A stretch of 64,000 nucleotides of DNA from a virus. Positions 2,201 to 47,854 of this stretch are shown here, in pieces (the stretch's first letter is position 1; each line of letters starts with the position of its first letter). Below the pieces are notes generated by a model. That model was not told the origin of the DNA. It did no database searches and saw nothing but the letters and a program-made list of their open reading frames with translations. Location: the IMG/VR virus record IMGVR_UViG_3300038429_000225, positions 1 through 64,000 of that record. The stretch is one strand, 5' to 3'. A program made the translations under genes and the position numbers.

Positions 2201-2288
2201 TTTCATTCTCCTGTTAAGAACGATCGGGGGAGAGTAACAGGCTCTCCCACGATCTAGCCCCCGGTAGCGAGCCGAGAGCTGAATTGAT

Positions 2289-13560: not shown

Positions 13561-15567
13561 CTATCGTTTGAATCCTATCGGGGTGTATGGGTCGTAGAGC
13601 TCTTCACCGGCTGTGTCGCCGGTGCCGGGTTCTGGAACAATAGGTAACTCATTCGTTCCTGGAGCATAATCACCCTGCCCAAATATCAGGTCATAAAAAT
13701 CTTTCTCGCGGAGAATGCGATCGAATTCCTTCTGACGGTCTCTGCCGCCAGGGCCACCGGGCTCCGTGGTTCCGGTCGGAATGATTCGATGAATGTGACT
13801 GATCGTATCCGGAATGTCGTCATGAAGCGAAGTCCCGAAATCTTTAAACTCTTTGTAGAGATCTTCAAGACACGAAATCGTGTTCAAAAAGAATAACTGT
13901 CCCCCGTAAAGAAGCGGTTGTAGGGCACCTACACGGGACGCTTTAGCGTTCGGAGAACGATCAACCTTGAAGAAGTCCAACGGGATGTACTCAGTTCCTG
14001 CCTCTAAGGCGTACTGACGAATTGAGCGCTCCAAAAACTGGGCCCCGTTCGAGTTCTCGATCAGAACCAGACGCGGGTGATATTTCTGAAATGACGAAGC
14101 AATTTCTTTCGCCAGATCATTGTCAAGATAATGGTCTCTAAAAATTTCCACTACATACACACGATTTTCTATGTCAAGGCCAACCACGGCACCGACTGAA
14201 TAATCGTTCTTCTGGTTTACTGCGTACGCAAAATCCCAAATGATATAGTACTGAAGTTGATGCGGAATGGCGTTCAACCCAACCGTCCGCTGGAGCATAA
14301 GATCCACCGTGAACTTGATCTTACGGGTGCCCGCCGTACTCAACATGTACTGCGAGAGATAGACCGCTATGTCTTTCTTCTTCTTCCTGTCGAGAAACTT
14401 GTGATCCAACTTCACGCGACCGGTCTTGTCTTTTTCAAACAACAACTCATAATCGGCTGGCGTGCAATCACGCTCATCCTTGTGAATCATCTCGGGCCGC
14501 AACCAGCGAGCCGGAGTAATCAAAACCTTCAAATCGCCCGGATGCAAAACGCTTTCGACTGTATGAGCATACAAATCACCAGGAGCATACGGCGTTCCCA
14601 GAAGGTCTTTGTATCCGCCTGGGTCAACCAGCGACTCGGCATAATTGATCTTCCGAATCACCTTGACTACGAGCATCGAAGTATCGGTGTTCTTGTCGTT
14701 AACGACGTCGTCGCCCTTCATCAAATCGCAGTGCCAACCCGGCAAGTTCGATAGAATCGATGATGCCCAAGCCGATGGATCCCTTTTCTTTTCGTCGCCT
14801 ACTGTTCGGCAAGGACAAATGAATTCGTCCTCGATGCCTTCATTCTTGCGAGTGAGATTCCACTCTGGAAATAATTTCTGAAAAATCGTGCCATCCGCAT
14901 TATCGGGAACCAGAAAATAGTTCTTAAGTTCCCCAATGAACGCGACCGCCAAACCAGACTCGGCCGTAAGAATCAAAATACGAATGTTTGGAAGATTGAT
15001 AAACCACTGCACGCAATCAACCACGTTAATCGTAGACTTGAAACTTCCGCGAGGATACAGCAAAAGACGTTCTTTCGTCTCATCCTGCTCTTCGATCTTC
15101 TTCGACGGATCCTTCTGCACGAAAAAATTACAGACAGGCGCGTGCGTTAGGAATGTGAAGTCTTTGTTGAAAATCTCACGGCCCAGAAACAACAAATTCG
15201 TCCGGCACATGAATCTCAAGAAATCCGTCGTTGACGTCGAGCTTGGACACTTTTTCTGATCTACCCACAAATCTTTGCCGCTCGAATCTTTTCCTTTGTG
15301 CTTAAGGCCTAAAATTTCCAATCGCCGAATCGAAGAATCAATGTTCTCATTAGAACCTGCTTCACCATATGCAGCCATCACCATATCAAACGTGATGTAA
15401 TTCTTCGCGCGTATAACTAATTCGTCAAACGTTTTCGGAGCGGGGCCCGCAAGATCACGATCTGCCACTTTCCAGAAATGCTTGATAGACAATTGGTCGC
15501 CGGCTTTTGCAGCTTCGGCTTTACCCTCGTTAAGTAAATAATCAATAGTCCAAATTGGTTCCGACAT
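13561..15567 (-). CDS. terL: Terminase large subunit
   Basis: Walker A PRGSFKST, G.H.D...DD, GTPY...DLY, nuclease WDFAY...DYS, IE.NG.Q, K..R, HDDIPD. Confidence 0.9.
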   Translation of the reverse strand: MSEPIWTIDYLLNEGKAEAAKAGDQLSIKHFWKVADRDLAGPAPKTFDELVIRAKNYITFDMVMAAYGEAGSNENIDSSIRRLEILGLKHKGKDSSGKDLWVDQKKCPSSTSTTDFLRFMCRTNLLFLGREIFNKDFTFLTHAPVCNFFVQKDPSKKIEEQDETKERLLLYPRGSFKSTINVVDCVQWFINLPNIRILILTAESGLAVAFIGELKNYFLVPDNADGTIFQKLFPEWNLTRKNEGIEDEFICPCRTVGDEKKRDPSAWASSILSNLPGWHCDLMKGDDVVNDKNTDTSMLVVKVIRKINYAESLVDPGGYKDLLGTPYAPGDLYAHTVESVLHPGDLKVLITPARWLRPEMIHKDERDCTPADYELLFEKDKTGRVKLDHKFLDRKKKKDIAVYLSQYMLSTAGTRKIKFTVDLMLQRTVGLNAIPHQLQYYIIWDFAYAVNQKNDYSVGAVVGLDIENRVYVVEIFRDHYLDNDLAKEIASSFQKYHPRLVLIENSNGAQFLERSIRQYALEAGTEYIPLDFFKVDRSPNAKASRVGALQPLLYGGQLFFLNTISCLEDLYKEFKDFGTSLHDDIPDTISHIHRIIPTGTTEPGGPGGRDRQKEFDRILREKDFYDLIFGQGDYAPGTNELPIVPEPGTGDTAGEELYDPYTPIGFKR

Positions 15568-15622
15568 ATTCGCGACCTCGGAAGGGCCCAATCCGAGCCG
15601 TTTCACGGTACATCAATTTCGT

Positions 15623-33777: not shown

Positions 33778-34254
33778 CTAAATTTGATCAAATACAGGAC
33801 AGCCACCTCTTAAAACTCCCAGATACTTATGAAAAAATACACCGAGCTCTTCAAAACCTGAATATACGCCGTCACCACCGAACGCAACAAATGGATGCTC
33901 TTTTCGCTTGGCGTCTGCAATAATGAAAATCAACTTCCCCTTCGCGCGCGAGTACCCAATCTCAAACATAGTACCCATCGAGGGATACCCACTTGCCATT
34001 GGCAGAAGATTCGCGACAACAATATCCGACCGATCAATCAGATCTAGATCCGTCCGATATGTCATGTAGGCAGCCGACCCGAACTTGCGAAGCTTTGATA
34101 TATCAAGCGTAACTAGATCGGATGGAATTCTGAATAAGAGCTCATCCTTGTATTCCTCGACGAACTGCTTTCGCCAAATGTAATCCTCAGGACCGCGTAT
34201 GGCGCCGGCAAGATAGACTGTCATCTTTCCGATGTTGGTTTTCAATTTTCCCAC
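33778..34254 (-). CDS. Nucleoside 2-deoxyribosyltransferase-like protein
   Basis: VYLAG.I, D...I..SD, S.GT.FEIGY....GK. Confidence 0.85.
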   Translation of the reverse strand: MGKLKTNIGKMTVYLAGAIRGPEDYIWRKQFVEEYKDELLFRIPSDLVTLDISKLRKFGSAAYMTYRTDLDLIDRSDIVVANLLPMASGYPSMGTMFEIGYSRAKGKLIFIIADAKRKEHPFVAFGGDGVYSGFEELGVFFHKYLGVLRGGCPVFDQI

Positions 34255-34889
34255 TTCCGCACCAGACGCATCTGGTGCTTTAGAATTTCAACTGCATAGG
34301 CCTTGACCAATGACATCTGCCCGGACTTCGCGATGACGCGATAGTCGTAGTTCCAACCATCCAGTTCAATCTCAGACTGGTGGCCGGCGGGTCGACTCTT
34401 GTCTAAATACTGCGTACCATCTTCGTTCAGCCGACGGACGTTGACAGTCGCGCCGCCGAGCTCTGTAATTGCGATCGCCTCGTTGGTGAATCGCATATCC
34501 GGGACAACTATCACGCCAACAGATTCATCGATTGATCGTTTAAACTGCTCGATCCAATAGTTCGGACGCCACCGACGCCGATACTCTGTTCCCCACCACT
34601 GCAAAAGCAACGAATGCTTTCCGAGCGGCATCATCGGATCTGACATGTCTGGATTTGGATCCGCTTTGACATAATCGGGAAACGGCACTCCTGGCTCCGG
34701 ACCGTATGCCAACAGCATCTCAATATCGCCTCCGTGCCGCGTCAAAGCATCATTGACTTCCCTTTTCAACGCGTCCGCGAAACCAACACGCTTACAAGGG
34801 GTGCTGTGATCAACACAAAATTCTTGGATGCCAGTGGCTGCGGTATCTTTCCCGTTCCTCGCTTTATTACCTAGGCCAATTATAATCAT
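34242..34889 (-). CDS. Deoxynucleoside monophosphate kinase
   Basis: IIGL..KARNGKDT, FADALK, LLQWWGTE..R, DMRF.NE, H.SE. Confidence 0.88.
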   Translation of the reverse strand: MIIIGLGNKARNGKDTAATGIQEFCVDHSTPCKRVGFADALKREVNDALTRHGGDIEMLLAYGPEPGVPFPDYVKADPNPDMSDPMMPLGKHSLLLQWWGTEYRRRWRPNYWIEQFKRSIDESVGVIVVPDMRFTNEAIAITELGGATVNVRRLNEDGTQYLDKSRPAGHQSEIELDGWNYDYRVIAKSGQMSLVKAYAVEILKHQMRLVRKWEN

Positions 34890-35913: not shown

Positions 35914-36639
35914 TTAAATCGCGTGGCCAGCAAAAACTCCACTAACGAATCCACCAACGAAACCCCACTTGAATCCGTTGAGCCACGACTTTCGCTGCGC
36001 TGCTTTCGCTGCCTTGGCATCTACTTTCCTCGCTGCCGCGGTGTCTGCGATCTGCTTGTTCAGCCCCGCAATCACTTCATCTTTCTTTCCGGAAACTTGA
36101 TTGCATCCAGCCAACTCCGCATCCGTCTGCACGATCGTTTCGGTTAGAGCCGGAATATTTTCTAACTGCTTCACTGTAGCACGGGCCCCGGCGTCTGTCA
36201 AGAGCAATTTGTTATCGGCCGTCGGTGTGATATCCCCCGGCTGAAGATTCGCTAGATAGGCCCAGCGGCTCGCCAGATCGGGCAATGGAAGATTCTGGTC
36301 GATCGCTTGATGAGCGGCGGCAGCGGCTTGAGCCACCTTGATCTTCGCAATTTGCTGCGCCGTGTCAATCGCCACTTGCGCGCGAAGCTGGGCCAGTTGA
36401 CCCACAAGCTGTTGATTCGTAACTGCATCGGTGTTAACCACTTGCTGGGCCGCGGTTGCTTGCCGCGCATCACGGCGGTCCAGATAATCGATGCCTTTCG
36501 AGTAGAAATGAAACCCCGCGAACAGGCACGCCGCAACAATCAAAATCTTCTCGTGCGCCTTAATAAAGGCTGCGTACGTGTGCACCCAATGGGGTAGCAA
36601 GGTCACTGGAGGGACTACTGGATTAGATGAAGTACTCAT
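35914..36639 (-). CDS. Membrane-anchored coiled-coil protein (spanin-like candidate)
   Basis: N-terminal TM segment, A/Q-rich coils and a hydrophobic G-rich C-terminus. Confidence 0.45.
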   Translation of the reverse strand: MSTSSNPVVPPVTLLPHWVHTYAAFIKAHEKILIVAACLFAGFHFYSKGIDYLDRRDARQATAAQQVVNTDAVTNQQLVGQLAQLRAQVAIDTAQQIAKIKVAQAAAAAHQAIDQNLPLPDLASRWAYLANLQPGDITPTADNKLLLTDAGARATVKQLENIPALTETIVQTDAELAGCNQVSGKKDEVIAGLNKQIADTAAARKVDAKAAKAAQRKSWLNGFKWGFVGGFVSGVFAGHAI

Positions 36640-37031
36640 TTGGTGTCTCCATAAGACTGACGGGTTACGGCATGCTGTTTCTGTTCTTCTAACTTCTCTT
36701 TCCTCAACATCTTACGGTGCTTCTTGGTCCCGATCCGTCCCGGATAGCCGTAGTGAGGCGCGCCTAGAGCAGCCTCGGCCGGCGGATTCTTGAGGTACAT
36801 GAATGCCGCGAGAATCAACACCACGCTGTCCCCAAAGCGGCCCAGGGCGCGGTTACAACGCGCACACAGGAGCCCGCGGACCAGGCCGTCCGTGTGATCA
36901 TGATCCGTGTTGGCTTTCTTCAATGGATGCCCGCAGATCGCGCAGAGCCCTTTCTGATAGTCCCAAATCTTCTGCCACTTCTCGATCGTCAGCTTAAAGT
37001 TGTCCATCAAATACTTGGCGCGTGCCTTCAT
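36636..37031 (-). CDS. Endonuclease VII-type nuclease
   Basis: QKGLCAICG...DHDH..GLVRGLLC..CNRALG. Confidence 0.88.
   Translation of the reverse strand: MKARAKYLMDNFKLTIEKWQKIWDYQKGLCAICGHPLKKANTDHDHTDGLVRGLLCARCNRALGRFGDSVVLILAAFMYLKNPPAEAALGAPHYGYPGRIGTKKHRKMLRKEKLEEQKQHAVTRQSYGDTK
36647..36674 (-). promoter_or_regulatory. Conserved 28-bp motif, copy 3
   Basis: CATGCCGTAAC-CCGTCAG-TCTTATGGAG, 7 nt before the ATG at 36639. Confidence 0.6.
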
Positions 37032-37876
37032 CGCAGATACAGCGCCGTCGCCGCCTCGTGTTCTTGAAACGCGTCTATGTCTTGAATGCCAGCCACCTCT
37101 CGAAGCTTGTTCTGCTTCATAACGACCGCACGCAACGCATTCACCTTCTGCTCCAGGGTTCCTTGGGGCAGGATGCCGCCGGTGCGGTGGTAACTGTACC
37201 AGCCCATGTGATAGGCACGTGGAACGAAAGGCCAGAGCGATGAGAGCCCGTATCGTCTCATCATGTTCTGAATGAGAATGTCTTGCTCAACCCCTGGCCC
37301 GAACGTCTGATCCTGAATGCGCTCTGAGTGGAGAAGCAGATCCAAAGATGTTCTGGGGAAACACGTGGCCCAGGACATGTATGCACCTTTCACCCGCGTA
37401 CACGCATTGACATCCTTGATTGTCTCGTCCATCGCGTATCGACCGTTTGATTCAAAATTGAGACTACGGTTCAGTCGGCCGGCACAGGAAACCCACGGCC
37501 TGAACTTCTCATAAACCTGTTCGTTCCAGGTGAAAAAATCTTTTGTGATAAGAACGTCATCTTCGATGATATACACTAACCGGTTCTCGCAGAAAGTCGC
37601 CTCTTCAAGAGCGGACAACAGATTGTAGCTATTGCCGTAAGTCGTATGGGGAACAGGCGCAGTGTAGTGAAACTGAAAGCCGAATTCTTTCTCAAAGTAT
37701 TGAATCGTTGCCAGCATCTCCATCTCGACCGTGAATCCCTTCGGCTTATCAGAATGAATATCCTCACAAACCATCACGATCTTGTCTTCTATTCCCTCGG
37801 CTGCCAGAAGACTTTCTAGACAGAGCCACAGAAACTCCGGACGATCAAATGTGGGAACGATCACGATGTCATGCAT
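37028..37876 (-). CDS. GT-A glycosyltransferase (GnT-I/GT13-like)
   Basis: P.FDRPE.L..CLESL, IEDDV.I..DFF, EQD, P.V.RAYH.G. Confidence 0.75.
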   Translation of the reverse strand: MHDIVIVPTFDRPEFLWLCLESLLAAEGIEDKIVMVCEDIHSDKPKGFTVEMEMLATIQYFEKEFGFQFHYTAPVPHTTYGNSYNLLSALEEATFCENRLVYIIEDDVLITKDFFTWNEQVYEKFRPWVSCAGRLNRSLNFESNGRYAMDETIKDVNACTRVKGAYMSWATCFPRTSLDLLLHSERIQDQTFGPGVEQDILIQNMMRRYGLSSLWPFVPRAYHMGWYSYHRTGGILPQGTLEQKVNALRAVVMKQNKLREVAGIQDIDAFQEHEAATALYLR

Positions 37877-38766
37877 CAGAACTCCTCCGTTCTCTTGAGC
37901 TCTCCGTTCCATTCATGGAAAGCCGAGTCCTCAGGAAACATTTCCAAATCATCATACGGGTTGTTGATCTTATTTGCGATCGTCGCCGGATTAGCAATCA
38001 TCTCACGTAGGCCTTCAATCTTCTGCTGCAGATATCCGTTCGGTCGCTGGCCATCGCGATGGTAACCATAGAAGCCCATATGGTACGCGCGCGAGACAAA
38101 CGGAAACGCGGCCTTCTTACCCGAAAGAATTATAAGACGTTCAATCAGTCCGTCCTGCTCTGTCCACGTGGATCCCAACGGGGTGTTGGGAAACTGCGCC
38201 TGAATGTATCCCGGCATATTGGTGTAGTAAGTGTTGCTTGCATGCCTAAGAAACGCGGGCATGTTCTCCCGCTTCCAACACACACCGTAGGATCCGTACC
38301 AACTTGCGGTATAAAACGCGGACGGATCTCTCACCGGCCCGATCTTCTCTCGATTGTGCCAGAAACAGTTGTTGCCTACTGTGCAGAAGAAATCACCTTT
38401 GTTTTGCACGTTCTCGTGCCACTCAAAGAAATCTGGCGTCACGAAAACGTCGTCCTCGACCAGATAGACACGCGGCGCTCCGCTAGAGTATGCGCGTTTA
38501 TATGCCTCTAGAGTGTTGAGACTGTTTCCGCACGTTGAGTGGACCGGCGCCAAAAAATAGTGAAGGTCCAGTGCTCCCTTCCAAGCGTTGATAACTTCTT
38601 GGGTCCAGGCCGCTTCGATCTTGTGGGCGTGTTCGTCGTCCGGATGATGATCTTGCATCAGCCACACTTGCTTGTCGTTGATGCCCTCGGCTTCCACCAG
38701 GTGCTCCAAACAAAGCTGCAAATACTCAGGACGAAAATAAATTGGAACCAGGACGATATCTTTCAT
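37876..38766 (-). CDS. GT-A glycosyltransferase, tandem paralogue of the previous gene
   Basis: P.Y.RPEYL..CLE.L, VEDDV.V.PDFF, EQDG, RAYHMG. Confidence 0.75.
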   Translation of the reverse strand: MKDIVLVPIYFRPEYLQLCLEHLVEAEGINDKQVWLMQDHHPDDEHAHKIEAAWTQEVINAWKGALDLHYFLAPVHSTCGNSLNTLEAYKRAYSSGAPRVYLVEDDVFVTPDFFEWHENVQNKGDFFCTVGNNCFWHNREKIGPVRDPSAFYTASWYGSYGVCWKRENMPAFLRHASNTYYTNMPGYIQAQFPNTPLGSTWTEQDGLIERLIILSGKKAAFPFVSRAYHMGFYGYHRDGQRPNGYLQQKIEGLREMIANPATIANKINNPYDDLEMFPEDSAFHEWNGELKRTEEF

Positions 38767-39491
38767 TCGACTGACCTCTTCAAATAATCAAACAGACTCC
38801 CGGGATAGGATCCGAACTTGTCTATACCGCCACGACGCGCCTCTTCATTCCACAGATGAATAGCGTATGCGTCTCCGACACACTGGCTCCCACTTTCGGA
38901 ACCAAATATGTTGCCCGGTGCATCGAAGTGATCGAGCGGACAAAACACCCACTTGGACTTCGCATATCTCCCGAGATCAAAACGCGGAACGGCTTCCATT
39001 ATCAAGGCGGGCCCGATATCGGCCCAATCGTTCTTTGTGACGTCTATTTCCGCCACCCGCTCTATACAGTACCGCATTATCTCACTTCCTGCCGGCGCCT
39101 TTATAACGCCGCCACACAGGTCCTGGGGATGACCGGGATTAGAACTTAACTGAGTTGCAAATACATATGGATCCGTGAAATCAAACGGCCGCAAACAAAA
39201 GGAGTCCAGGTCTGACCACCAGCTTCCGTTCTTGTAAAGAAGCAGGTAACGGAAATAGTCCGAGAAGTTGGCTAGGTTCTGAAACTTTTCAATCTTCCAC
39301 TTCGGTGCAATTTGATTAGCATCTTTGACAACCGCACCCGCAGGCACACCCTTGACAGGGCCGTACGTGTAGAGATGAAAAGGGTGTCCCATACGCAGAT
39401 ATGACTTGATACATATCTGCTCCATCGGGGAAAGCTGATCGCCTACCCACAAGCTTTGAATCGTGTCTAGCTTTACAAATCTCTCGATCAT
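38763..39491 (-). CDS. Alpha-1,4-glycosyltransferase-like (GT32/DXD) protein
   Basis: LW.G..L...E..C..S, FSD.FRY.LL...G..W.D.D, IGP, HLWNE. Start moved to 39491. Confidence 0.8.
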   Translation of the reverse strand: MIERFVKLDTIQSLWVGDQLSPMEQICIKSYLRMGHPFHLYTYGPVKGVPAGAVVKDANQIAPKWKIEKFQNLANFSDYFRYLLLYKNGSWWSDLDSFCLRPFDFTDPYVFATQLSSNPGHPQDLCGGVIKAPAGSEIMRYCIERVAEIDVTKNDWADIGPALIMEAVPRFDLGRYAKSKWVFCPLDHFDAPGNIFGSESGSQCVGDAYAIHLWNEEARRGGIDKFGSYPGSLFDYLKRSVE

Positions 39492-40612
39492 ATCTTCTCT
39501 CTCAGCCTTTCGAACTCCGCGAGACTCATCGCCACGACCTGGTCCATATTGAGATACTTGTACGTGGCCAGCCGCCCCACGAAAGTTACGTTCGAAAGCT
39601 GCTCCGCTCTCGCCTCGTACATCTTGTAGATTGACTTCGCCTCCGCATTCGGAATCGGATAGTAGGGCGTGTCGCCCGGAACAAACTCTTTCGGATACTC
39701 GCGCACGATGGTGGTGTTGGGGCACTTCTGTCCGGTCGCGTGCTTGATCTCGACGATTCGCGTATAGTCGAAGTCGTTGGGATATGCCACCGATGTCGTC
39801 GGCTGCCAAAATCCCCTGACCAGATGCTCCGGGCCGATCGTCTCGTGCTCGAAGCGCAGCGTTCTGTACGGAAGGCGCCCGTGCTCGTACAGAAAGAATT
39901 CGTCGATCGGGCCTGTGTACACCAGGTGCTTGTATATGCACTGCCAGGAGAAGTCGTAGAACGACATGTTCGGAATGAACTCAATGTTCTGCGAACTGTG
40001 CAACATGTTCTCAAACATCGCAGTGTACCCGGCGACTGGCATCATCTGATAGGTGTCGTTGAAGTAAAGATCGTTCCGATTCGTGCGGATGGGAATCCGC
40101 GCGCAAACCGACGCGTCCAGATCCTTTGGGTCGCGTCCCCACTGCTTCTTCGTGTAGCCCTTGTAAAACATCTCGTACAACTCGTGGCCCACCTGAGAGA
40201 GGATCGCTTCCTCAGAATTCTTCGGGTTCGGAATCGATATGCGGTTCTTCGCCAGATAGTCTTCCATCTCCTCCGTCGTGCTGGGCCGGCCGATCAACTG
40301 TTCGTACGTTTTCAAGTTGACCGGAAAACTCCAGTGCCGCCGATGCGTAAAGCTGGAAGCCGTGTAGGCTGTGGGGATGAAGGTCGTAAACTGCGACAAG
40401 TAGTCGGCCACCCTCTTGGAATTCGTGTGGAACAGATGCGGCCCGTAAGCATGTACAAGGACACCGCCCTGGTCAATGTAGTCGAACGCATTGCCGCCGA
40501 TATGCGCCCGCTTGTCAATCACGATGCAGCGCTTGCCGATCAAGGCCAGCCGTTCCGCCATCACCATGCCCGCAAGTCCCGCCCCAACAATCAGAACGTC
40601 GCAATAGTTCAT
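39488..40612 (-). CDS. glf: UDP-galactopyranose mutase
   Basis: VGAGLAG, HIGGN.FD, YGPHLFHTN, Y..KQWG, YTGPID, LPYR.L, TRI.E.KH, PYYPI, GRLATYKY.NMDQ. Confidence 0.95.
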   Translation of the reverse strand: MNYCDVLIVGAGLAGMVMAERLALIGKRCIVIDKRAHIGGNAFDYIDQGGVLVHAYGPHLFHTNSKRVADYLSQFTTFIPTAYTASSFTHRRHWSFPVNLKTYEQLIGRPSTTEEMEDYLAKNRISIPNPKNSEEAILSQVGHELYEMFYKGYTKKQWGRDPKDLDASVCARIPIRTNRNDLYFNDTYQMMPVAGYTAMFENMLHSSQNIEFIPNMSFYDFSWQCIYKHLVYTGPIDEFFLYEHGRLPYRTLRFEHETIGPEHLVRGFWQPTTSVAYPNDFDYTRIVEIKHATGQKCPNTTIVREYPKEFVPGDTPYYPIPNAEAKSIYKMYEARAEQLSNVTFVGRLATYKYLNMDQVVAMSLAEFERLREKI

Positions 40613-41457
40613 AAGGTCACCAAGACATCTCGCCAGCGTTGTAGAGCCGCATCATACGTCAGATAGTTTTTCGCGAAGTCCGTCGCGCCTGCGCTCAGGC
40701 ACGCGATCGCGCCGGGGTCCGACTTCACTTCCGCAACCAGGTCCGCGAGATCGGCCATGTCGGCCCGCACCGGGATGTAGTTCTCGTACGGGCGCAGACC
40801 CGGATGGAAGAACTCTGAGAACGGACTCTTGACGATGAAGACAGGCCGATTCGCGTGCATCAGCATCTTCAAGCGGCCGGAGTACCCATTGCCGCGGATG
40901 TCGATCAACATGCTGTACTTGCAGTGGTCGGGCAGCGACACGAACTTGGTTGTGTCCTGCTTCCTGCCGGTGTACGTTGCGTGCCAGTCCATGCCGACGA
41001 AGTGCATGTCGTCCGGGTGCTGCGCGCCGATGTCCAGCAGCGTTTGCCGCGATGGGTGTGTGGCCACGCAGCCAATCCAGAAGATCTTATCGATCGTGGG
41101 CGCTGGGAGCCCCGCCTGCGCAATAGCGGCCGTGCTCTCCGCGTACGAATTGATTCCCGCTTCCGGCCACCCGCCATAAATGTGATCGGGAATCGCCTTG
41201 ACGTTGGCCGCACTGCAACCGGTTGTTGAGTAAGCCAGTACGGGAATGTCCGGGCCCAGAGGCGCCGCACGTTCCGGGTTGTCGCCGGTGTAGATGTAAA
41301 AGTCGAACGTCCAGCCGATGAGCTCGGACGCATACCTCGCGATCGCATCGTGCATAACAGAAAGCGTGTGCTCATGACGGCTTTGGTAGCCGCCGAAATC
41401 ATCAACCATAAAAGAGTCACGAGACGAACGCACTCGAATGAATTCGTGCATGTTCAT
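40609..41457 (-). CDS. GT90 (CAP10/POGLUT-like) glycosyltransferase
   Basis: IPD, K.FW.G, R..L, SL.DHCKY..LID.RG..YSGRLK.L, EFF...L.P...YIPV..D..DL. Confidence 0.8.
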   Translation of the reverse strand: MNMHEFIRVRSSRDSFMVDDFGGYQSRHEHTLSVMHDAIARYASELIGWTFDFYIYTGDNPERAAPLGPDIPVLAYSTTGCSAANVKAIPDHIYGGWPEAGINSYAESTAAIAQAGLPAPTIDKIFWIGCVATHPSRQTLLDIGAQHPDDMHFVGMDWHATYTGRKQDTTKFVSLPDHCKYSMLIDIRGNGYSGRLKMLMHANRPVFIVKSPFSEFFHPGLRPYENYIPVRADMADLADLVAEVKSDPGAIACLSAGATDFAKNYLTYDAALQRWRDVLVTL

Positions 41458-42035
41458 CACAGCACCTTCCACCAAATCCGACACGTATCGTACGTCGTGC
41501 CTTCCGCCACACCGCGAAGCACCTGCACGTCAGGAACCTGCTCATCAACAGCGCGGTTGACGGACGGCGTGTAGTCAACCGTTCCTGGGTCGGCGTAATC
41601 GTGCCCGCACAACAAGCCGCCCGGTTCGAGCACCTGACGCCAAAGTCGGATGTCTTCGGAGACGTACTCGTAATCGTGGTTTCCGTCGATGAACACCATG
41701 TCCACCTTTTGCTTCGCCGCTATAAACAGGTTGGCGGCGTCGATAGACGGCATGTGTACCACGAAAACTTTCTTGTTCAAAAGGTCAACTAAGTTCTGTC
41801 CGAAGCGTTGAAATGCCTCTGGCTCCCGGGGCCAAAAGTCGACCGCGTAAACAAGCCCGGGGGTGTTGTCAGCTAAGGCTCTCGTACTGCGCCCCATCCA
41901 ACAACCCACCTCAACAATCCTCGTGTGAGTGCGCGCGTGTTCGGCTAGCCACTCGAGCTCCGGTATCGACATGACCTGGTTAGGAAATCTTTCATCTTGA
42001 TGAATCAAACGCGCTTTAGAAATGTCAATATCCAT
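41457..42035 (-). CDS. Class I SAM methyltransferase (Methyltransf_24-like)
   Basis: VEVGCWMGRST, FIDGNHDY, GG...GHDY. Confidence 0.88.
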   Translation of the reverse strand: MDIDISKARLIHQDERFPNQVMSIPELEWLAEHARTHTRIVEVGCWMGRSTRALADNTPGLVYAVDFWPREPEAFQRFGQNLVDLLNKKVFVVHMPSIDAANLFIAAKQKVDMVFIDGNHDYEYVSEDIRLWRQVLEPGGLLCGHDYADPGTVDYTPSVNRAVDEQVPDVQVLRGVAEGTTYDTCRIWWKVL

Positions 42036-42040
42036 TTTCT

Positions 42041-42880
42041 TTACCTGTACTTGTTCGCCACAACGTCGCGCCACAAACCTGACCGATCGTACTGGTGAAC
42101 GATCGCAAACGGCACCCCTGTCTCAGGTGCGCGCACGAGCCCGGACGCCGCGTCAAACACCGGCAGCTTGTCCGTACACTGCGCCAGTCGATACGCCTTG
42201 TTGGCCGGCTCTTCCCACTCTTCGGCCACAATCCACGAAACCGTCGCGGTCCAGGCGTCTTCTGGCTTCGGAATCGTGGTGACTTCACGCAACGGACTGG
42301 TCCGTATCAAATAGTTGAAGTACGTTTCATCCCACAGATTGGGGTCGGGATGCGTCGCGATCGCGGACATCAGATACACCATGTTCATCGGGTCGCCGGC
42401 AATCGTGCCGCTGCAACAACTTGCATATTCTCGAAGCCACGAATGAATGTCTGGCCCCAACAGCCGTGCCTCTCGATCTTCACCTGGGCCCGCCTTGATG
42501 GGCCAACCGCCCATATTTGCCGCCACGATGCACGGAGCCGTCGCATGATTATCCAACCACGCTGACGGGTCAGTTTGGAAGATCAGGTCCCGCGCATCAA
42601 CCCAAATCACGTACCGAAAGTTGTTCAGCCGCGGGCGTAGGTAGTCGCACACGGGAACAAATCTTTTCTTGTAGTAGAAGTGTCGAGGGCCGCCCTTCTC
42701 AAACACCGTGTCGATCAGCTTGAATCCCAGCGCTGCGAGGTTCTCCCGGGCGTCACCGGGGATGTTCTCGATGAGCAACACCTTCTCACCCTTGAATCCG
42801 GTCTGAGCCAACGACACAGCGAACGGTTTCAGTTGAGCCCAATTGTAATCGTGAACGGCTGCAATGATCAGGTCTTCCAT
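42041..42880 (-). CDS. GT-A glycosyltransferase-like protein
   Basis: RF, D.RD..FQ.DP, SG...G, D....N, IVHQYDR. Confidence 0.7.
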   Translation of the reverse strand: MEDLIIAAVHDYNWAQLKPFAVSLAQTGFKGEKVLLIENIPGDARENLAALGFKLIDTVFEKGGPRHFYYKKRFVPVCDYLRPRLNNFRYVIWVDARDLIFQTDPSAWLDNHATAPCIVAANMGGWPIKAGPGEDREARLLGPDIHSWLREYASCCSGTIAGDPMNMVYLMSAIATHPDPNLWDETYFNYLIRTSPLREVTTIPKPEDAWTATVSWIVAEEWEEPANKAYRLAQCTDKLPVFDAASGLVRAPETGVPFAIVHQYDRSGLWRDVVANKYR

Positions 42881-43485
42881 CTGTTGTGACACTCCCTTAT
42901 TTGATCTGGAACCAACTGCGTAAGCACGATCGTGTCGTTCGTCACTTCTGAACCGACGAGAAGATAATTCGGAAGGGGCTTCACGAAAATTCCTTCCCGT
43001 CCCAACACCTGGCCGTCCCAGCGATCGGAGAAGAATGTCTCTTTGAATGCGGGCACGTCACTAAGCCAAGGGGACGCCTGCGAAAGAATCTGCAACGACC
43101 GCTCCGAAAACCAGCATGCGCCGCCAGAAGCGTAGTCAAACCGAATAACACCTGGGGGCGGGGGCGGTGAACCGCCTTCATTCGCCTTCGTGACGATGCC
43201 AGCATAGTCATCTTCGACCGCGCGCAAATTCCGGGCCCAGACGTACATGTCGTCGTCGCACTTCAAAAGATGCTTGTATCCGTGGTCCAACGTCCACCGA
43301 TAGATGGCTTTCGCTTTCGTGACACAGGCTTCGTATCCGTCTGGAACGCCAAGCCTCTCACCGTCGAATACCTCGACGCGGAAGCCGGCCGCCCTCACTT
43401 CGGGAATCCACGTCTCCTGCTGCGCCTGGAGCCGGTGGGCATACTTCTTACACGTAAAGATCGCAACAAGGGTGTCGTTGATCAT
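42868..43485 (-). CDS. GT31 (Fringe/galactosyltransferase)-like glycosyltransferase
   Basis: R......TW, D.Y....K, KCDDD.YV, Y.SGGA..FS. Confidence 0.75.
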   Translation of the reverse strand: MINDTLVAIFTCKKYAHRLQAQQETWIPEVRAAGFRVEVFDGERLGVPDGYEACVTKAKAIYRWTLDHGYKHLLKCDDDMYVWARNLRAVEDDYAGIVTKANEGGSPPPPPGVIRFDYASGGACWFSERSLQILSQASPWLSDVPAFKETFFSDRWDGQVLGREGIFVKPLPNYLLVGSEVTNDTIVLTQLVPDQIRECHNRWKT

Positions 43486-44030
43486 AGTTCCTTGTACCAG
43501 ATAAACTGTCCCCCGACTTTGTGATCGGGAAGCAACTCGTCAACCGCTTGCGTGACGCCATCCCAGGAGCCATAATCGTGACCGCTTATGATTCCTCTCG
43601 GAGCGATCAGCGGCTGCCACGCCCGGATATCTGCCGCGACGTTTTCATAGTCATGCGCGGCATCCAGAAAAACCATATCGAAAGTCACACCCATGTGGCG
43701 GTAATATTTCGTGGCATCCACCGACAGGCCGCGGAAGGCGTAGAGCCGCCCCGTGGGGAGGCCTTCCATGTTTTTGGCAAACTCTCCGAACAGCCAGTTC
43801 TCCGGCTTCCCCGCCAAGATCGCCCGGTGCGCGTCTTCGTCGCTGCCTTCCCAGGTGTCAACCGCCACAACCACGCCGGTTGTGTTGTCGACGATCGCCC
43901 GCGTGCTGCGGCCGAACCACGAACCCACTTCCACGATCTTCGAGTGTGTGGACGCCTGTTCGGCCAGCCACAACAGGTCCGGGTCTTCCATCCACCCCTC
44001 GATCCTCTGCGCGCGGGTGATATCAACCAT
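43482..44030 (-). CDS. Class I SAM methyltransferase, paralogue of 41457..42035
   Basis: VEVGSWFGRST, FLDAAHDY, GHDY. Confidence 0.88.
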   Translation of the reverse strand: MVDITRAQRIEGWMEDPDLLWLAEQASTHSKIVEVGSWFGRSTRAIVDNTTGVVVAVDTWEGSDEDAHRAILAGKPENWLFGEFAKNMEGLPTGRLYAFRGLSVDATKYYRHMGVTFDMVFLDAAHDYENVAADIRAWQPLIAPRGIISGHDYGSWDGVTQAVDELLPDHKVGGQFIWYKEL

Positions 44031-45006
44031 TGGCGATCACCTCTTGGACACGCTGATGGAAGTATTCTCGCTGGGCCAGGAACGCAGCTCGAGCCCCCTT
44101 CTGAATTTCCTCAATACACTGTGGAGACATACGCCACGCGTTATCGATCGCACTTTTCACGTCCATGGCGCCTACCCACGCAAACCGTCCCACTTGATTC
44201 ATCGGATCCCATTTCTGCGAATGAACCAATAGTTTCGGATCAACACCGGCGTATTCATTCATCGGGGGAAAGTCCGTTGTAATCATCACAGCGCCACATC
44301 CGAGACCTTCGTGAATCACATGTCCCCACCCTTCTGCTCCGGATGGCATGATGTGAAACATGCATTCGTTCATCAAACGCTTTAACTCAGATTCTCCGGC
44401 GCGCTCAATGTATAAGCAATTCGGACGCCCTTGAATCATATTCATATGGCCGCAATCGGATGAAACGAGAATAAAAGGTATATTGTATCCCTGATTCCAC
44501 GGACCCTGAAAGGGGTTATAGAAAAACTTTGCAAAAGTGTATATGACTTGCATTGTATTTTTAGAAGCACTTCCGCCGGCAACATGAAGAAACTTACGCA
44601 AGCGGGGGATAGATGGGTCATACAAATCCCTCGACTCCCACCCGACGTGACGACATCTATCACCAAAACCCTTTTCGGAAAAGGCACGAAAGGCTTCGTG
44701 CGTCTTACATAAAATCTTGTCGATCCGCAGAAGGATAGGATCCCAGCAAGCATGATACCATTCCTGATTGGGCACAAACCAGTTCTGCTTTGCCTTGTTC
44801 AACCCAATCACATAGGAAGAAAGAAGCTCGAGAAATATGTTGACGTCAGCTTCCGGAATCTCTTTATCAAAAGATTCGCCACTCATACCAGCAATCTTCA
44901 CGCCATGAACTTCGTGGCCCAGGCTCTCGAGCAAACTTCGCAAAAGTTTGTAGTCGGACTCGAGCCCAAAGCAGTTATCGATCAATGTGCAAATGTTGAA
45001 CTTCAT
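44023..45006 (-). CDS. GT-B (GT4-like) glycosyltransferase
   Basis: FLHVAG.S..K, PS..EGWGH...E...CG......D.PPMNE. Confidence 0.8.
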   Translation of the reverse strand: MKFNICTLIDNCFGLESDYKLLRSLLESLGHEVHGVKIAGMSGESFDKEIPEADVNIFLELLSSYVIGLNKAKQNWFVPNQEWYHACWDPILLRIDKILCKTHEAFRAFSEKGFGDRCRHVGWESRDLYDPSIPRLRKFLHVAGGSASKNTMQVIYTFAKFFYNPFQGPWNQGYNIPFILVSSDCGHMNMIQGRPNCLYIERAGESELKRLMNECMFHIMPSGAEGWGHVIHEGLGCGAVMITTDFPPMNEYAGVDPKLLVHSQKWDPMNQVGRFAWVGAMDVKSAIDNAWRMSPQCIEEIQKGARAAFLAQREYFHQRVQEVIANG

Positions 45007-45278
45007 TTGAACCTCGGGTCAGGGCTGCCCCAAAATTGGTAGATCAGATACAACTGAATCCCACAGAGTGTACTCTGGACGATGTACCAGGCCGACAGAT
45101 AAGGCGCCTTCTCCGCGATCGCCAGAATCAGATTGTTCACCTGGACCAAGAATATGAACCAGCTTGAGATCTTGCTAAAATCCCTGGTATGCTGGCGCTT
45201 CCAAATCCGCTTGAAGGCGGGGTAATAGATTCCGATCGTCATCAAGAGGCTGACTGCTATCAAAACATTCTTGATCAT
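45003..45278 (-). CDS. PQ-loop/SemiSWEET-like 3-TM transporter
   Basis: 91 aa with three hydrophobic helices and YYPAFKRIWKRQHTRDFS (a variant of the PQ...K...T.D.S motif). Confidence 0.65.
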   Translation of the reverse strand: MIKNVLIAVSLLMTIGIYYPAFKRIWKRQHTRDFSKISSWFIFLVQVNNLILAIAEKAPYLSAWYIVQSTLCGIQLYLIYQFWGSPDPRFK

Positions 45279-45487
45279 GCTTTCGGTTCCTTGCCTGCGA
45301 TCGCGGCATCGGATTTCTTGATGACCTGCTTCCGCTTTGCCTCGCGCCAATCCGCTCGTTCCTTCTCCCGCTTCGACTGAATTTTATGAACGCCCTTTTC
45401 GTAGTAGATGATCTTCTCACCTTGAACAACGATCCAGACGAATAGCAGCAACTCCATGATAGTCGTGGTGCGTTCGAATGTGAACAT
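45275..45487 (-). CDS. Small membrane protein
   Basis: One TM segment and a charged tail. Confidence 0.5.
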   Translation of the reverse strand: MFTFERTTTIMELLLFVWIVVQGEKIIYYEKGVHKIQSKREKERADWREAKRKQVIKKSDAAIAGKEPKA

Positions 45488-45495
45488 GAGATCTC

Positions 45496-45867
45496 CTAGA
45501 GCAAGCCATCGTAAGCGCCGGCGCGCAGTAGCCGGCAGATCTCTCCCTGGAAGCGGGTCCCGTGCCCCTCGTCTGCCTTGTACCCAACATAGCAGTCAGA
45601 GGCGCTTTCGAGATCGGCGTGGATCATTTCATGAAGCATTAAAATGTAGATAGAGTTCCATCCCGTCTGCATCATGCAACGGTCAATTTTTATCTCACGC
45701 TCATAGTCATTCCACATCCCGTTCGCTTTTTTCTTGCGAAGATCTGCCCACCGAACTCTGATCGTCGGATGCAGCCGGCCCGCGAAAAACTTGTGGTTGA
45801 GAAATCCGAAAGCTCTTTGAAGCTCCTTATTTGAGATATGCAGACGGCGTTTTGTTTTGTGTGCCAT
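45496..45867 (-). CDS. SprT-like zinc metalloprotease
   Basis: N.KFF.G.L, LHEMIH, H...F. Confidence 0.85.
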   Translation of the reverse strand: MAHKTKRRLHISNKELQRAFGFLNHKFFAGRLHPTIRVRWADLRKKKANGMWNDYEREIKIDRCMMQTGWNSIYILMLHEMIHADLESASDCYVGYKADEGHGTRFQGEICRLLRAGAYDGLL

Positions 45868-47101: not shown

Positions 47102-47129
47102 CTCCATAAGACTGACCAGTTACGGCATG
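47102..47129 (-). promoter_or_regulatory. Conserved 28-bp motif, copy 4, at the head of the leftward arm
   Basis: CATGCCGTAAC-TGGTCAG-TCTTATGGAG. Confidence 0.65.
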
Positions 47130-47854
47130 GCGACAACCCTTTTCTTTTCAGTGATGGCTCCCGAGCGGAGCGGCCTCAGTTGTGCCGAAGGTCCTTCGGA
47201 CAGAAGCCCCTTCGGGGCGCCGAAACCCTACGTTCGTAATTCGCGATTCGCGAATAGCGAATGTCACCGCACTTCCCTCCGCGCTGCCCTCCGCGTCCGA
47301 TCTAAATCATTGATAATAAAGGACAGCGTGTCGCTACTGTGCCCTCATGATCCAAAACCGCTAACAAGGATCCAAGGACACTAAGATTCGCTGGTCTATA
47401 GACCACAGAACTCGCTGACACGCCATATACCCGCTGGAGGCTCCGGTATATAGGATGGATGGCGATCGCGCGCCTGCGAGGCTGCCCGGGCGCTGGGAGC
47501 CCCGACTACATAATGTGTCACAAAACCCCCCGATTCGAGGGGTTTCGTGCATCATCGAAGGAGCGTGTTTCAACATACGCTGAAACTACCACAATTGGTG
47601 AACAGGCGGTGCACCCGCGGAGCACCCGCGGAGCGCCCTTACGGGGGTGCGACAGAGGCGCGACAGAGGCGCGCGGCGGGCGCGATGGACGGGCAGGAAG
47701 GGCGCTGGGAGCCCCCAGTGTATAATCAGTAACGTTATAGATATCGAGTCTCGACCCATGGGTTGAAGAAAAAGCGAAAGTCGAAAAGTCAAGTAGTTGG
47801 AAGCAAAGGACTTAACCCAAAACAGAAAGTCTATTTTCGTGCAGTGGGGTCGAA

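What the first reader, a model, noticed from the sequence alone, without database searches (positions are those of the whole stretch)
37028..45278. 8-kb glycan pathway of protein-glycosylation-like enzyme families, with galactofuranose supply and O-methylation
Seen: eleven tightly coupled genes, namely two GnT-I-like GT-A paralogues, a GT32-like, glf, a GT90-like, a further GT-A, a GT31/Fringe-like, a GT4-like, two Methyltransf_24-like enzymes and a PQ-loop protein. None of the enzymes shows an obvious TM anchor, and there is no GtrA/B/C, flippase or polymerase. Known: GT13, GT31 and GT90 members glycosylate proteins in eukaryotes, Glf makes UDP-Galf, and some actinobacteriophages glycosylate their virions. 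Inference: a cytoplasmic pathway that builds a methylated Galf-containing glycan on virion proteins. Host-surface or DNA modification are the alternatives. The cluster lies downstream of motif copy 4.
Basis: partly seen in the sequence, partly recalled or inferred. Interest (0 to 1): 0.78.

Follow-up and report, generated by a model that had tools for sequence, protein, structure and literature searches.

The report
Phage glycan-building gene cassette
A 92-kb soil phage carries eleven back-to-back genes for building a methylated, galactofuranose-containing sugar chain; its two core enzymes recur next to capsid and tail genes in dozens of unrelated phages, so the chain most likely coats the virus particle, though no experiment shows this yet.

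Summary
None of the enzymes has a TM segment.

New here:
- The GT4-like and GT13-like genes form a conserved pair. It occurs in 55 of 62 IMG/VR loci from very different phages.
- In at least 40 of those loci the pair lies within 5 kb of a morphogenesis gene (portal, capsid, major tail, tape measure).
- Close relatives keep these anchor genes but swap the enzymes between them.
- The glf-to-MT2 block is GC-richer and specific to this phage.
- GT90 and glf sit directly adjacent in eight other viral contigs, which suggests a GT90-type galactofuranosyltransferase.
- No ThyA-like, Tet/JBP or C5-methylase gene was found in the window or in two complete relatives, so DNA glycosylation is disfavoured.

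Virion-protein glycosylation is the best reading (about 0.5), but it is inferred and no acceptor was identified. This scan has already noted many analogous phage cassettes on other DNA, so this is a new variant of a known kind.

The parts
45003..45278 (-). g11: 91-aa SemiSWEET/PQ-loop-like membrane protein. It is the first gene of the cassette and is found only in this phage.
   Evidence: ESM Atlas 0.92 to PQ-loop/MtN3_slv clusters. Hydrophobic segments at 1-19 and 37-55. The sequence P-A-x-K-x-x-x-K...S follows TM1 (read from the translation; its likeness to a PQ motif rests on my recall). Pfam gives only DUF5985 at 0.036. No homologue in 62 related loci.
44023..45006 (-). g10: GT4-like retaining GT-B glycosyltransferase. 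It is the conserved upstream anchor of the cassette and one half of the core pair.
   Evidence: Model pLDDT 94. VIA Z 24.5-27.8 to SenB, MshA, BshA, PglA, PimA, GtfA and SdgB. EX7E motif E225..E233 conserved. Present in 55 of 62 loci that carry the GT-A.
43482..44030 (-). g9: class I SAM methyltransferase (Methyltransf_24), a probable sugar O-methyltransferase.
   Evidence: Pfam 8.2e-17. 46% identical homologue in L005. Relative L004 has TylF-type sugar O-MTs in the same place (1.3e-48).
42868..43485 (-). g8: GT31 (Galactosyl_T/Fringe)-like GT-A.
   Evidence: Pfam Fringe only 0.008. Atlas features 0.97 and structure TM 0.79-0.82 to Galactosyl_T clusters, mostly phage.
42041..42892 (-). g7: GT-A glycosyltransferase of an unnamed family, remotely GT6-like.
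   Evidence: No Pfam hit. 593 representatives. Profile hits alpha-1,3-GalT at 2.6e-4. Relatives are fused to GT2, GT6, GT31, GT92 or MT domains. D99 is nearly invariant and D102 invariant, so a D-x-x-D motif is conserved.
41457..42074 (-). g6: second Methyltransf_24 methyltransferase.
   Evidence: Pfam 1e-19.
40609..41484 (-). g5: GT90 (POGLUT1/CAP10-like) GT-B. It is a candidate galactofuranosyltransferase.
   Evidence: Pfam 6.6e-23. POGLUT1 4.4e-16 over the C-terminal half. Directly followed by glf here and in 8 other viral loci.
39488..40612 (-). g4: UDP-galactopyranose mutase (Glf), which supplies UDP-Galf.
   Evidence: Pfam GLF 2.3e-68, full length. 57-64% identity among the top non-self hits; the named ones are Verrucomicrobiota, Terriglobales and Chthoniobacterales Glf at 59-60%.
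38763..39491 (-). g3: GT32-like (Gly_transf_sug, DXD) GT-A.
   Evidence: Pfam 1.7e-5, 25.9 bits, above the cut-off. 54-61% homologues in L004 and L005.
37876..38766 (-). g2: GT13/GT16-like GT-A, paralogue 2.
   Evidence: 31-34% identical to g1-type proteins; 56-57% orthologues in L004 and L005. EDD motif present in the translation. 28% identical to Streptomyces phage Satis gp54.
37028..37876 (-). g1: GT13/GT16-like GT-A, paralogue 1. It is the conserved downstream anchor of the cassette.
   Evidence: Model pLDDT 92. POMGnT1 Z 21.5, GnT-I Z 21.4, MGAT2 Z 20.1. E-D-D motif conserved (E105/D107 invariant, D106 at least 90%). 91 homologues, many on contigs of about 93 kb.
47102..47134 (-). Copy 4 of the repeated 33-nt motif, upstream of the transcription unit that contains the cassette.
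   Evidence: the repeat finder family D1, 4 copies at 79-100% identity.
36647..36679 (-). Copy 3 of the same motif, just downstream of the cassette and the EndoVII gene. It ends in a GGAG placed 7 nt before the start of the next gene.
   Evidence: coordinates.

Best explanation
The cassette is a phage-encoded, cytoplasmic, nucleotide-sugar-dependent pathway that builds a methylated hetero-oligosaccharide. It most likely builds it on the phage's own virion proteins.

Shown:
- Seven soluble glycosyltransferases, a UDP-Galf-forming mutase, two class I methyltransferases and a small membrane protein are encoded as one translationally coupled unit.
- A GT4-like retaining GT-B and a GT13/GT16-like inverting GT-A form a conserved pair that is widespread in phages.
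- In other phages this pair is typically embedded in head or tail morphogenesis operons.

Inferred:
- The GT4-like enzyme puts the first sugar on an acceptor, and the GT13-like enzymes extend it. By analogy with GnT-I and POMGnT1, that could be a beta-linked HexNAc on an alpha-linked hexose.
- The lineage-specific middle genes add further residues: GT32-like in the clade, and Glf, GT90, GT6-like and GT31-like in this phage. These include galactofuranose, probably added by the GT90-like enzyme. The two methyltransferases then cap hydroxyls.
- The SemiSWEET-like protein may bring in sugar to feed the pathway.
- The swapping of middle genes between close relatives implies that the glycan is under diversifying selection, as expected for a surface structure.
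For: - Gene content and coupling.
- Folds and motifs.
- The GT4-like gene is in 55 of 62 loci that carry the GT-A, and within 3 kb in 50. A morphogenesis gene is annotated within 5 kb in at least 40 of the 62.
- Typical arrangements are portal-GT4-GT-A-major capsid, terminase-portal-GT4-GT-A, and Phage_tail_S-GT2-GT4-(MT)-GT-A-major tail-tape measure.
- In Streptomyces phage Satis, gp53/gp54 lie in the same-strand block that runs on through gp55-57 to the tail assembly chaperones and tape measure.
- The family was not found in 185,579 prokaryote species genomes, but by a scan that used a single pattern.
- Relatives L003, L004 and L005 keep the GT4 and GT-A anchors but carry different middle genes: epimerase, GT2, TylF-type sugar O-MTs, FkbM MT.
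- The precedent comes from papers that cite Freeman et al. 2023 (itself not held). They report that mycobacteriophages glycosylate capsid and tail-tube subunits with their own GTs (PMC12619734, PMC12363180). In the Corndog record the uncharacterised genes 34-38, which include gp38, named there as an essential capsid GT, lie upstream of the capsid maturation protease (gene 39).
- No ThyA-like, Tet_JBP or C5-MTase gene in the window or in two complete relatives.
Against: - No acceptor was identified. Capsid and tail proteins of the window and of related loci show no S/T-rich tails.
- In this phage and its three close relatives the cassette lies between SprT-like and small ORFs and the EndoVII and DNA-polymerase exonuclease genes. 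It is not among structural genes.
- Location beside structural genes has also been reported for DNA-glycosylating clusters (bioRxiv 10.1101/2023.12.21.572611).
- The GT4 fold matches plateau across small-molecule, lipid and protein acceptors.
- There is no sequence similarity to the Corndog cassette.
- The last 28 kb of the contig could not be read.
Confidence: 0.5

Rival explanations
1. Host envelope modification. The soluble GTs act at the inner face of the membrane on host undecaprenyl-linked O-antigen, EPS or capsule intermediates, or on teichoic-acid-like polymers. The host's own flippase and polymerase export the altered glycan. This changes the cell surface, for example for superinfection exclusion or to keep progeny from sticking to debris.
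For: - Peripheral GTs of polysaccharide pathways also lack TM segments.
- Glf, GT2, GT4, epimerase and pyruvyl transferase are typical polysaccharide-locus content.
- The glf gene is about 60% identical to soil-bacterial Glf.
- Relatives carry tyrosine-recombinase-like genes, so the clade may be temperate.
- TarP, a prophage GT-A acting on wall teichoic acid, is among the fold matches.
Against: - No GtrA/B/C, Wzx, Wzy or Bac_transf gene in the window or in relatives.
- The core pair is conserved across phages of evidently different hosts, including Streptomyces phages. This argues for a universal acceptor rather than a host-specific polysaccharide.
- The usual position inside late structural operons fits this poorly.
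- No synteny with any prokaryote genome was found for GT90 or the GT-A.
Confidence: 0.17
2. DNA hypermodification. The GTs build a methylated glycan on a modified base in phage DNA to block restriction. Examples are the glycosylated 5hmC and 5hoC systems, and Rhizobium phage RL38J1, which uses a phage Glf.
For: - Phage Glf is proposed to feed DNA glycosylation in Pootjesviridae (PMC13326640).
- The cassette lies beside replication genes, a dNMP-kinase-like gene and a nucleoside deoxyribosyltransferase-like gene.
- PHROG labels the methyltransferase family 'DNA methyltransferase'.
- Gene swapping between relatives would also fit an arms race with restriction systems.
Against: - All described routes need a ThyA homologue or a 5mYOX/TET enzyme, with or without a C5-MTase. 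None was found in 64 kb of this phage or in two 100%-complete relatives.
- T4 beta-GT is not among the top 50 fold matches of g10, and JGT-like folds are not top for g1.
- Seven GTs and two O-MTs are far more than any known DNA glycan needs.
Confidence: 0.1
3. Another cytoplasmic product. One option is glycosylation of a non-virion phage or host protein, for example a secreted Ig/collagen-like protein such as the one inside the cassette of relative L003. The other is synthesis of a free polymethylated oligosaccharide, as in mycobacterial methylmannose polysaccharides.
For: - L003 carries a signal-peptide TIG plus collagen-like protein in the middle of its cassette.
- The methylmannose-polysaccharide mannosyltransferase is among the close GT4 fold matches (Z 26.5).
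- GT plus O-MT is the composition of those pathways (recalled, not checked here).
Against: - The embedded protein is present in one relative only.
- No known benefit to a phage of a free methylated polysaccharide.
- The position of the core pair in structural operons is unexplained by this reading.
Confidence: 0.13

Closest known systems
Mycobacteriophage virion glycosylation (Che8 gp110, Corndog gp38, Myrna). The source is Freeman et al. 2023, Cell Host Microbe, as summarised in PMC12363180 and PMC12619734.
   Same: Phage-encoded soluble glycosyltransferases. In this scan's earlier notes and in my recollection of the original paper (not in the papers I could read), O-methyltransferases accompany them. 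In Corndog, gp38 and the neighbouring uncharacterised genes 34-37 lie upstream of the capsid maturation protease, an arrangement close to the one the present core pair takes in many IMG/VR phages.
   Different: No detectable sequence similarity to the Corndog cassette. The core enzymes here are GT4-like plus GT13/GT16-like. The cassette is larger (seven GTs), includes Glf, GT90 and a SemiSWEET-like gene, and in this clade lies outside the structural block. The target is unproven. The likely host is not an actinobacterium (nearest isolate Tunturiibacter phage Tunturi_3, TerL 29%).
Chlorovirus and giant-virus capsid glycosylation machinery (reviewed in PMC9614988; not read here, only its abstract was seen).
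   Same: Virus-encoded, cytoplasmic glycan assembly independent of ER and Golgi, carried out by multi-family GTs and methyltransferases. The multidomain GT-plus-MT architecture of chlorovirus A064R is cited from memory. A chlorovirus NY2A GT (3oy2) is among the best fold matches of g10. GT90 homologues of g5 are common in giant-virus MAG records. g7 relatives occur as multi-domain GT plus MT fusions.
   Different: This is a tailed bacteriophage. The enzymes are single-domain and translationally coupled in an operon. No orthology to the characterised chlorovirus enzymes was shown.
GnT-I (GT13), POMGnT1 (GT13) and MGAT2 (GT16) of eukaryotes.
   Same: Best structural matches of g1 (Z 20-21.5, rmsd 2.7-2.8, 210-224 residues), well above other GT-A folds (Z 16.7 or less). 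A conserved E-D-D metal-binding motif is present, as I recall for GnT-I.
   Different: 12-21% identity. No stem or TM region and no lectin domain. Pfam GNT-I and MGAT2 scores are far below their cut-offs. Donor and acceptor are unknown.
Phage DNA glycosylation clusters (5hmC glycans, bioRxiv 10.1101/2023.12.21.572611; arabinosyl and galactosyl 5hoC, PMC13326640).
   Same: Phage GT-A and GT-B enzymes, sometimes several in a row, sometimes with sugar-nucleotide supply genes including Glf, sometimes near structural genes.
   Different: Those clusters depend on a ThyA homologue or a 5mYOX dioxygenase. None was found here or in complete relatives.

Membership tests
CAZy GT13/GT16-like GT-A (GnT-I, POMGnT1, MGAT2) | GT-A fold closest to GnT-I, POMGnT1 and MGAT2 | tested here: met
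   g1 model pLDDT 92. VIA Z 21.5, 21.4 and 20.1 against 16.7 for the next family. Foldseek E about 1.5e-11.
CAZy GT13/GT16-like GT-A (GnT-I, POMGnT1, MGAT2) | E-D-D metal and nucleotide-sugar binding motif | tested here: met
   E105 and D107 invariant and D106 in at least 90% of 29 homologues. The motif is also present in g2.
CAZy GT13/GT16-like GT-A (GnT-I, POMGnT1, MGAT2) | Sequence membership (Pfam GNT-I PF03071 or MGAT2 PF05060 above the gathering score) | tested here: not met
   12.5-15.7 bits against cut-offs of 25.4 and 27. These are fold-level relatives, not family members by sequence.
CAZy GT13/GT16-like GT-A (GnT-I, POMGnT1, MGAT2) | Transfer of beta1,2-GlcNAc from UDP-GlcNAc to alpha-mannose | not testable with these tools
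   Needs an enzyme assay.
GT4 retaining GT-B | Two-Rossmann GT-B fold with an EX7E motif | tested here: met
   pLDDT 94; Z 24.5-27.8 to many GT4 structures. E225-x7-E233 conserved. Pfam Glycos_transf_1 scores 24.1 bits, just under its 26.4 cut-off.
GT90 (POGLUT1/CAP10) | Pfam Glyco_transf_90 above the gathering score | tested here: met
   81.7 bits against 24, covering residues 33-287. POGLUT1 4.4e-16.
GT90 (POGLUT1/CAP10) | Protein O-glucosyl- or xylosyltransferase activity on EGF repeats | not tested
   Only the C-terminal half aligns to POGLUT1. No EGF-like acceptor was looked for. The glf adjacency suggests a different donor.
UDP-galactopyranose mutase (Glf) | Full-length GLF domain plus an N-terminal FAD-binding Rossmann motif | tested here: met
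   PF03275 2.3e-68 (149-353) and NAD_binding_8 2.9e-18 (8-75). 57-64% identity among the top non-self hits, many of them named Glf.
GT31 (Galactosyl_T/Fringe) | Sequence or fold membership | tested here: inconclusive
   Pfam Fringe 16 bits against 21. Atlas features 0.97 and TM 0.79-0.82 to Galactosyl_T clusters. No fold model of my own.
GT32 (Gly_transf_sug) | Pfam PF04488 above the gathering score, with the DXD region | tested here: met
   25.9 bits against 23, but only residues 69-104 are matched.
PQ-loop / SemiSWEET | Three-TM unit with a PQ motif; Pfam PF04193 or PF03083 | tested here: inconclusive
   No Pfam hit. Atlas 0.92 to PQ-loop/MtN3 clusters. Two clear hydrophobic segments and one weaker one. 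The motif reads P-A rather than P-Q.
Phage virion glycosylation system (as in Che8, Corndog, Myrna) | Phage-encoded GTs whose products are found on capsid or tail proteins | not testable with these tools
   Needs glycoproteomics of virions.
Phage virion glycosylation system (as in Che8, Corndog, Myrna) | Homology to the characterised GTs (Corndog gp34-38) | tested here: not met
   tblastn at E up to 1 found no meaningful match. Che8 and Myrna were not compared.
Phage virion glycosylation system (as in Che8, Corndog, Myrna) | GT genes embedded in the structural gene block | tested here: inconclusive
   Met for the core pair in at least 40 of 62 loci from other phages. Not met in this phage and its three close relatives.
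Phage DNA glycan hypermodification cluster | ThyA-homologue hydroxylase or hydroxymethylase, or a 5mYOX/TET enzyme, to create the acceptor base | tested here: not met
   No PF00303, PF12851 or PF00145 in window ORFs or in complete relatives G001 and G002. The last 28 kb of this contig was not seen. The Tet_JBP search had no positive control.

The most novel reading that the evidence does not exclude
Two linked claims. First, the GT4-like plus GT13/GT16-like pair is a phage-restricted, widely distributed protein O-glycosylation core. The GT4-like enzyme starts the chain on Ser or Thr of virion proteins, and the GT13-like enzyme extends it as POMGnT1 extends O-mannose. Lineage-specific enzymes are swapped in around this core to diversify the virion glycan. 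Second, GT90-like enzymes encoded directly next to glf are a previously unrecognised family of galactofuranosyltransferases, shared by phages and giant viruses.
Probability: 0.25. Interest if true: 0.75.

Novelty: new variant of a known kind. Interest (0 to 1): 0.55.

Why it matters
Virion glycosylation by phage-encoded enzymes has been shown experimentally only in a few mycobacteriophages, and in giant algal viruses. There it shields particles from antibodies. If the GT4-like plus GT13-like pair is a general virion-glycosylation core, sugar-coated particles would be common among soil phages. The modular cassette would then be a natural system for diversifying a viral surface glycan. That bears on phage-host recognition, phage persistence in soil and the immunogenicity of therapeutic phages. 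The GT90-glf linkage offers a testable candidate for a new galactofuranosyltransferase family. Galf is absent from mammals, and Galf-building enzymes are of interest as drug targets (from general knowledge, not checked here).

Tried and rejected
- Megablast of the cassette against 50,697 phage records found no match.
- tblastn of GT90 against isolated phages found none.
- Close-pattern scans for GT90 found no relative in viral contigs, genome contigs or metagenome contigs. A family alignment was needed to find any.
- A genome-contig scan with the GT-A alignment found none, but only one peptide pattern was used, so 'phage-restricted' is provisional.
The neighbourhoods of the closest metagenomic homologues (g1 84-99%, GT90 72%, glf 71%) therefore could not be read. 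Whether the glf-to-MT2 block exists elsewhere as a block is unknown.
- The window's own whole genome is not held, so contig positions 64001-92427 were not examined.
- Looking for S/T-rich C-termini in capsid and tail proteins of the window and of related loci showed nothing striking. Clusters c4, c5 and c9 in my ORF clustering look like antisense artefacts of GC-rich contigs and were ignored.
- Tests for an NCLDV capsid or Terminase_6C in five GT90-glf records were uninformative.
- Freeman et al. 2023 (PMC10527164) is not held, so its content is cited second-hand.
- The sigma-70 promoter and terminator scan of the region was at shuffle level.
- The idea that the shared upstream motif marks late genes was rejected: one copy also precedes the exonuclease, nucleotide-metabolism and replication genes.

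Full report
**Context.** The window is the first 64 kb of a 92,427-bp contig (contig length).
- It is a tailed phage. Terminase (13561-15606), portal (11415-13550), DNA polymerase, primase and helicase all lie on the minus strand.
- No whole genome is held for it.
- The nearest isolate is Tunturiibacter (Acidobacteriota) phage Tunturi_3, with only 29% identity in the terminase.
- Earlier notes of this scan call it a peat/soil phage.

**Observation.** Eleven minus-strand ORFs fill 37028-45278.
- From the small ORF at 45275-45487 down to the gene at 35914-36639, fourteen consecutive genes overlap by 1-34 nt, mostly as ATGA. This is one translationally coupled unit.
- A 33-nt motif has four copies in the window.
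- A consensus promoter and terminator scan was at background level.

**Enzyme identities.**
- *g1 and g2.* Pfam support is weak (Glyco_tranf_2_3 1.6e-6; MGAT2 and GNT-I far below their cut-offs).
  - An alignment of 29 homologues shows a conserved E-D-D motif (E105 and D107 invariant, D106 in at least 90%).
  - The AlphaFold model (pLDDT 92) matches POMGnT1, GnT-I and MGAT2 best. Foldseek gives E about 1.5e-11.
  - VIA gives Z 21.5, 21.4 and 20.1 at rmsd 2.7-2.8 over 210-224 residues, against Z 16.7 for the next GT-A, SpsA.
  - These are fold-level relatives of GT13/GT16. They are not sequence members.
- *g3* passes the Gly_transf_sug (GT32) cut-off.
- *g4* is a full-length Glf (2e-68). The top non-self hits are 57-64% identical. 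The named ones are Verrucomicrobiota, Terriglobales and Chthoniobacterales Glf at 59-60%.
- *g5* is GT90 (6.6e-23). Its C-terminal half aligns to POGLUT1 at 4e-16.
- *g6 and g9* are Methyltransf_24. A relative carries TylF-type sugar O-methyltransferases at the same place (1.3e-48), which supports sugar O-methylation.
- *g7* has no Pfam family but 593 representative relatives.
  - Many are fused to GT2, GT6, GT31, GT92 or methyltransferase domains.
  - The family profile hits GT6 alpha-1,3-galactosyltransferase at 2.6e-4.
- *g8* is GT31-like by ESM Atlas features (0.97) and structure (TM about 0.8). Pfam Fringe scores only 0.008.
- *g10* is a GT4-type GT-B (pLDDT 94; Z 24.5-27.8 to many GT4 structures; EX7E motif conserved).
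- *g11* has no Pfam PQ-loop hit, but it resembles PQ-loop/MtN3 clusters at 0.92 and has hydrophobic segments.
- No enzyme has a TM segment.

**The conserved core.** A scan of IMG/VR with the GT-A alignment returned 63 loci from contigs of 4 to 260 kb.
- tblastn of all cassette proteins shows that only the GT-A and the GT4-like protein recur. They recur together.
- Of 62 loci scored, 55 hold the GT4-like gene. It lies within 3 kb of the GT-A in 50 and within 100 bp in 19.
- Clustering and annotating the neighbours gave recurrent arrangements in several unrelated lineages:
  - portal, GT4, GT-A, major capsid protein;
  - terminase, portal, GT4, pyruvyl-transferase-like, GT-A;
  - Phage_tail_S, GT2, GT4, methyltransferases, GT-A, major tail protein, tape measure;
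  - GT4, GT-A, then a 1,700-aa tape measure.
- At least 40 of the 62 loci have an annotated morphogenesis gene within 5 kb. This is a lower bound, because only some neighbours were annotated.
- Among 50,697 isolated phage records, only seven Streptomyces phages carry the pair. In Satis, gp53/gp54 lie in the same-strand block that runs on through gp55-57 to the tail assembly chaperones and tape measure.
- I found no functional study of these genes.
- A pattern scan of one genome for each of 185,579 prokaryote species found no relative of the GT-A. Only one pattern was used, so this is provisional.

**A variable island.** The three close relatives are L003 (a complete 92.8-kb genome with terminal repeats), L004 and L005.
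- All three keep the GT4-like gene upstream and the GT-A paralogue(s) plus EndoVII downstream, at 44-60% identity.
- The genes in between differ:
  - L005 has one MT24, an MT23-like ORF and GT32.
  - L004 has two TylF-type MTs, GT2 and two GT32-like genes.
  - L003 has a second GT-B, an NDP-sugar epimerase/dehydratase, two GT2, MT24, an FkbM MT, a split third GT-A and a signal-peptide TIG plus collagen-like protein.
- None of the three has glf, GT90, g7, g8 or g11.
- In the window, the block g4-g9 (39488-44030) has GC 0.545-0.594, against 0.476-0.511 for g10, g3, g2 and g1. This block looks like a later acquisition.

**GT90 and glf.** GT90 homologues in the large protein collection are unnamed metagenomic proteins (up to 72% identity), plus an Aureococcus protein.
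- In IMG/VR, 301 stretches encode relatives. About a third of the 80 loci kept are giant-virus MAG records.
- In 17 of those 80 loci, glf lies within 6 kb.
- In 8 loci glf follows GT90 directly on the same strand with a gap of 16 nt or less, as in the window.
- None of the 62 GT-A loci has glf (Fisher p = 3e-5).
- I infer that this GT90 branch uses UDP-Galf. This is inference only. From memory, no Galf-transferase is listed in GT90.

**Which acceptor?** The DNA rival was taken seriously.
- Phage GTs do build glycans on 5hmC (bioRxiv 10.1101/2023.12.21.572611).
- A phage Glf is proposed to feed glycosylation of 5-hydroxycytosine in Rhizobium phage RL38J1 (PMC13326640).
- All these routes need a thymidylate-synthase homologue or a 5mYOX/TET enzyme.
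- Pfam scans of the other 64 window ORFs show neither, and no C5-methylase. Two 100%-complete relatives have no PF00303, PF12851 or PF00145. The Tet_JBP search had no positive control.
- T4 beta-GT is not among the top 50 matches of g10.
- Remaining hints for DNA are the position beside replication genes, a Nuc_deoxyrib_tr gene and a weak dNMP-kinase-like gene.

Host-envelope modification cannot be excluded.
- For it: polysaccharide-pathway GTs are also soluble, and relatives carry recombinase-like genes.
- Against it: no Gtr, Wzx, Wzy or Bac_transf genes; no synteny with prokaryote genomes; and a core pair conserved across phages of different hosts, usually inside late operons.

For the virion reading, the precedent is mycobacteriophage glycosylation of capsid and tail-tube subunits.
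- It is cited here through PMC12619734 and PMC12363180, because the original paper is not held.
- In the Corndog record the uncharacterised genes 34-38, which include gp38, lie upstream of the capsid maturation protease.
- There is no sequence similarity to the present enzymes.
- No acceptor was found, and no S/T-rich tails were seen.

**Verdict.**
- This scan has already recorded many analogous GT/MT cassettes in other uncultured phages, so the kind is not new.
- The distinctive points are:
  - the GT4-like plus GT13/GT16-like core pair;
  - the anchor-and-swap architecture;
  - the GT90-glf link;
  - the SemiSWEET-like gene;
  - the position outside the structural block.

Noticed in passing
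L070, L071, L127, L129, L133-L135, L137 (GT90 match, then glf): A GT90-like gene is directly followed by glf on the same strand (gap 16 nt or less) in eight viral contigs. glf lies within 6 kb in 17 of 80 GT90 loci and in 0 of 62 GT-A loci. This is a possible new Galf-transferase family. About a third of the 80 records are giant-virus MAGs.
   Followed up: partly
L003:5771-6739 (+): Inside the glycan cassette of a complete relative lies a 322-aa protein with an N-terminal signal peptide, an IPT/TIG domain (2.6e-6) and a short collagen-like G-x-y run. It could be a secreted or fibre-type acceptor. It is absent from the window.
   Followed up: partly
window 33778-34889 (-): A nucleoside 2-deoxyribosyltransferase-like gene (1e-13) is followed by a weak dNMP-kinase-like gene (0.0012), next to the DNA polymerase exonuclease subunit. 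These are nucleotide-pool genes that might hint at base modification.
   Followed up: no
window 35914-36639 (-): A 241-aa protein with an N-terminal TM segment, a long coiled-coil-like Ala/Gln-rich stretch and a hydrophobic C-terminus. It is conserved directly after EndoVII in L004 and L005 and preceded by motif copy 3. It looks spanin- or membrane-tether-like.
   Followed up: no
L003:8220-9061 (+): A third GT13-like paralogue in the relative is split into two ORFs (151 and 149 aa), probably by a frameshift.
   Followed up: no
G002:C1:42314-42808 and G001:C1:80306-80761: Tyrosine-recombinase-like genes occur in two complete relatives (63.8 bits and 21.3 bits), so the clade may be temperate or may use a recombinase for another purpose.
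   Followed up: no
window 36636-37031 (-) and 1709-2326 (-): EndoVII/HNH-type homing-endonuclease-like genes. One directly follows the glycan cassette and is conserved there in relatives (50-69% identity). It could promote cassette exchange.
   Followed up: no
window 45496-45867 (-): A SprT-like metalloprotease-domain gene (5e-8) lies upstream of the cassette. It is also upstream of the GT4-like gene in L004 (47% identity).
   Followed up: no
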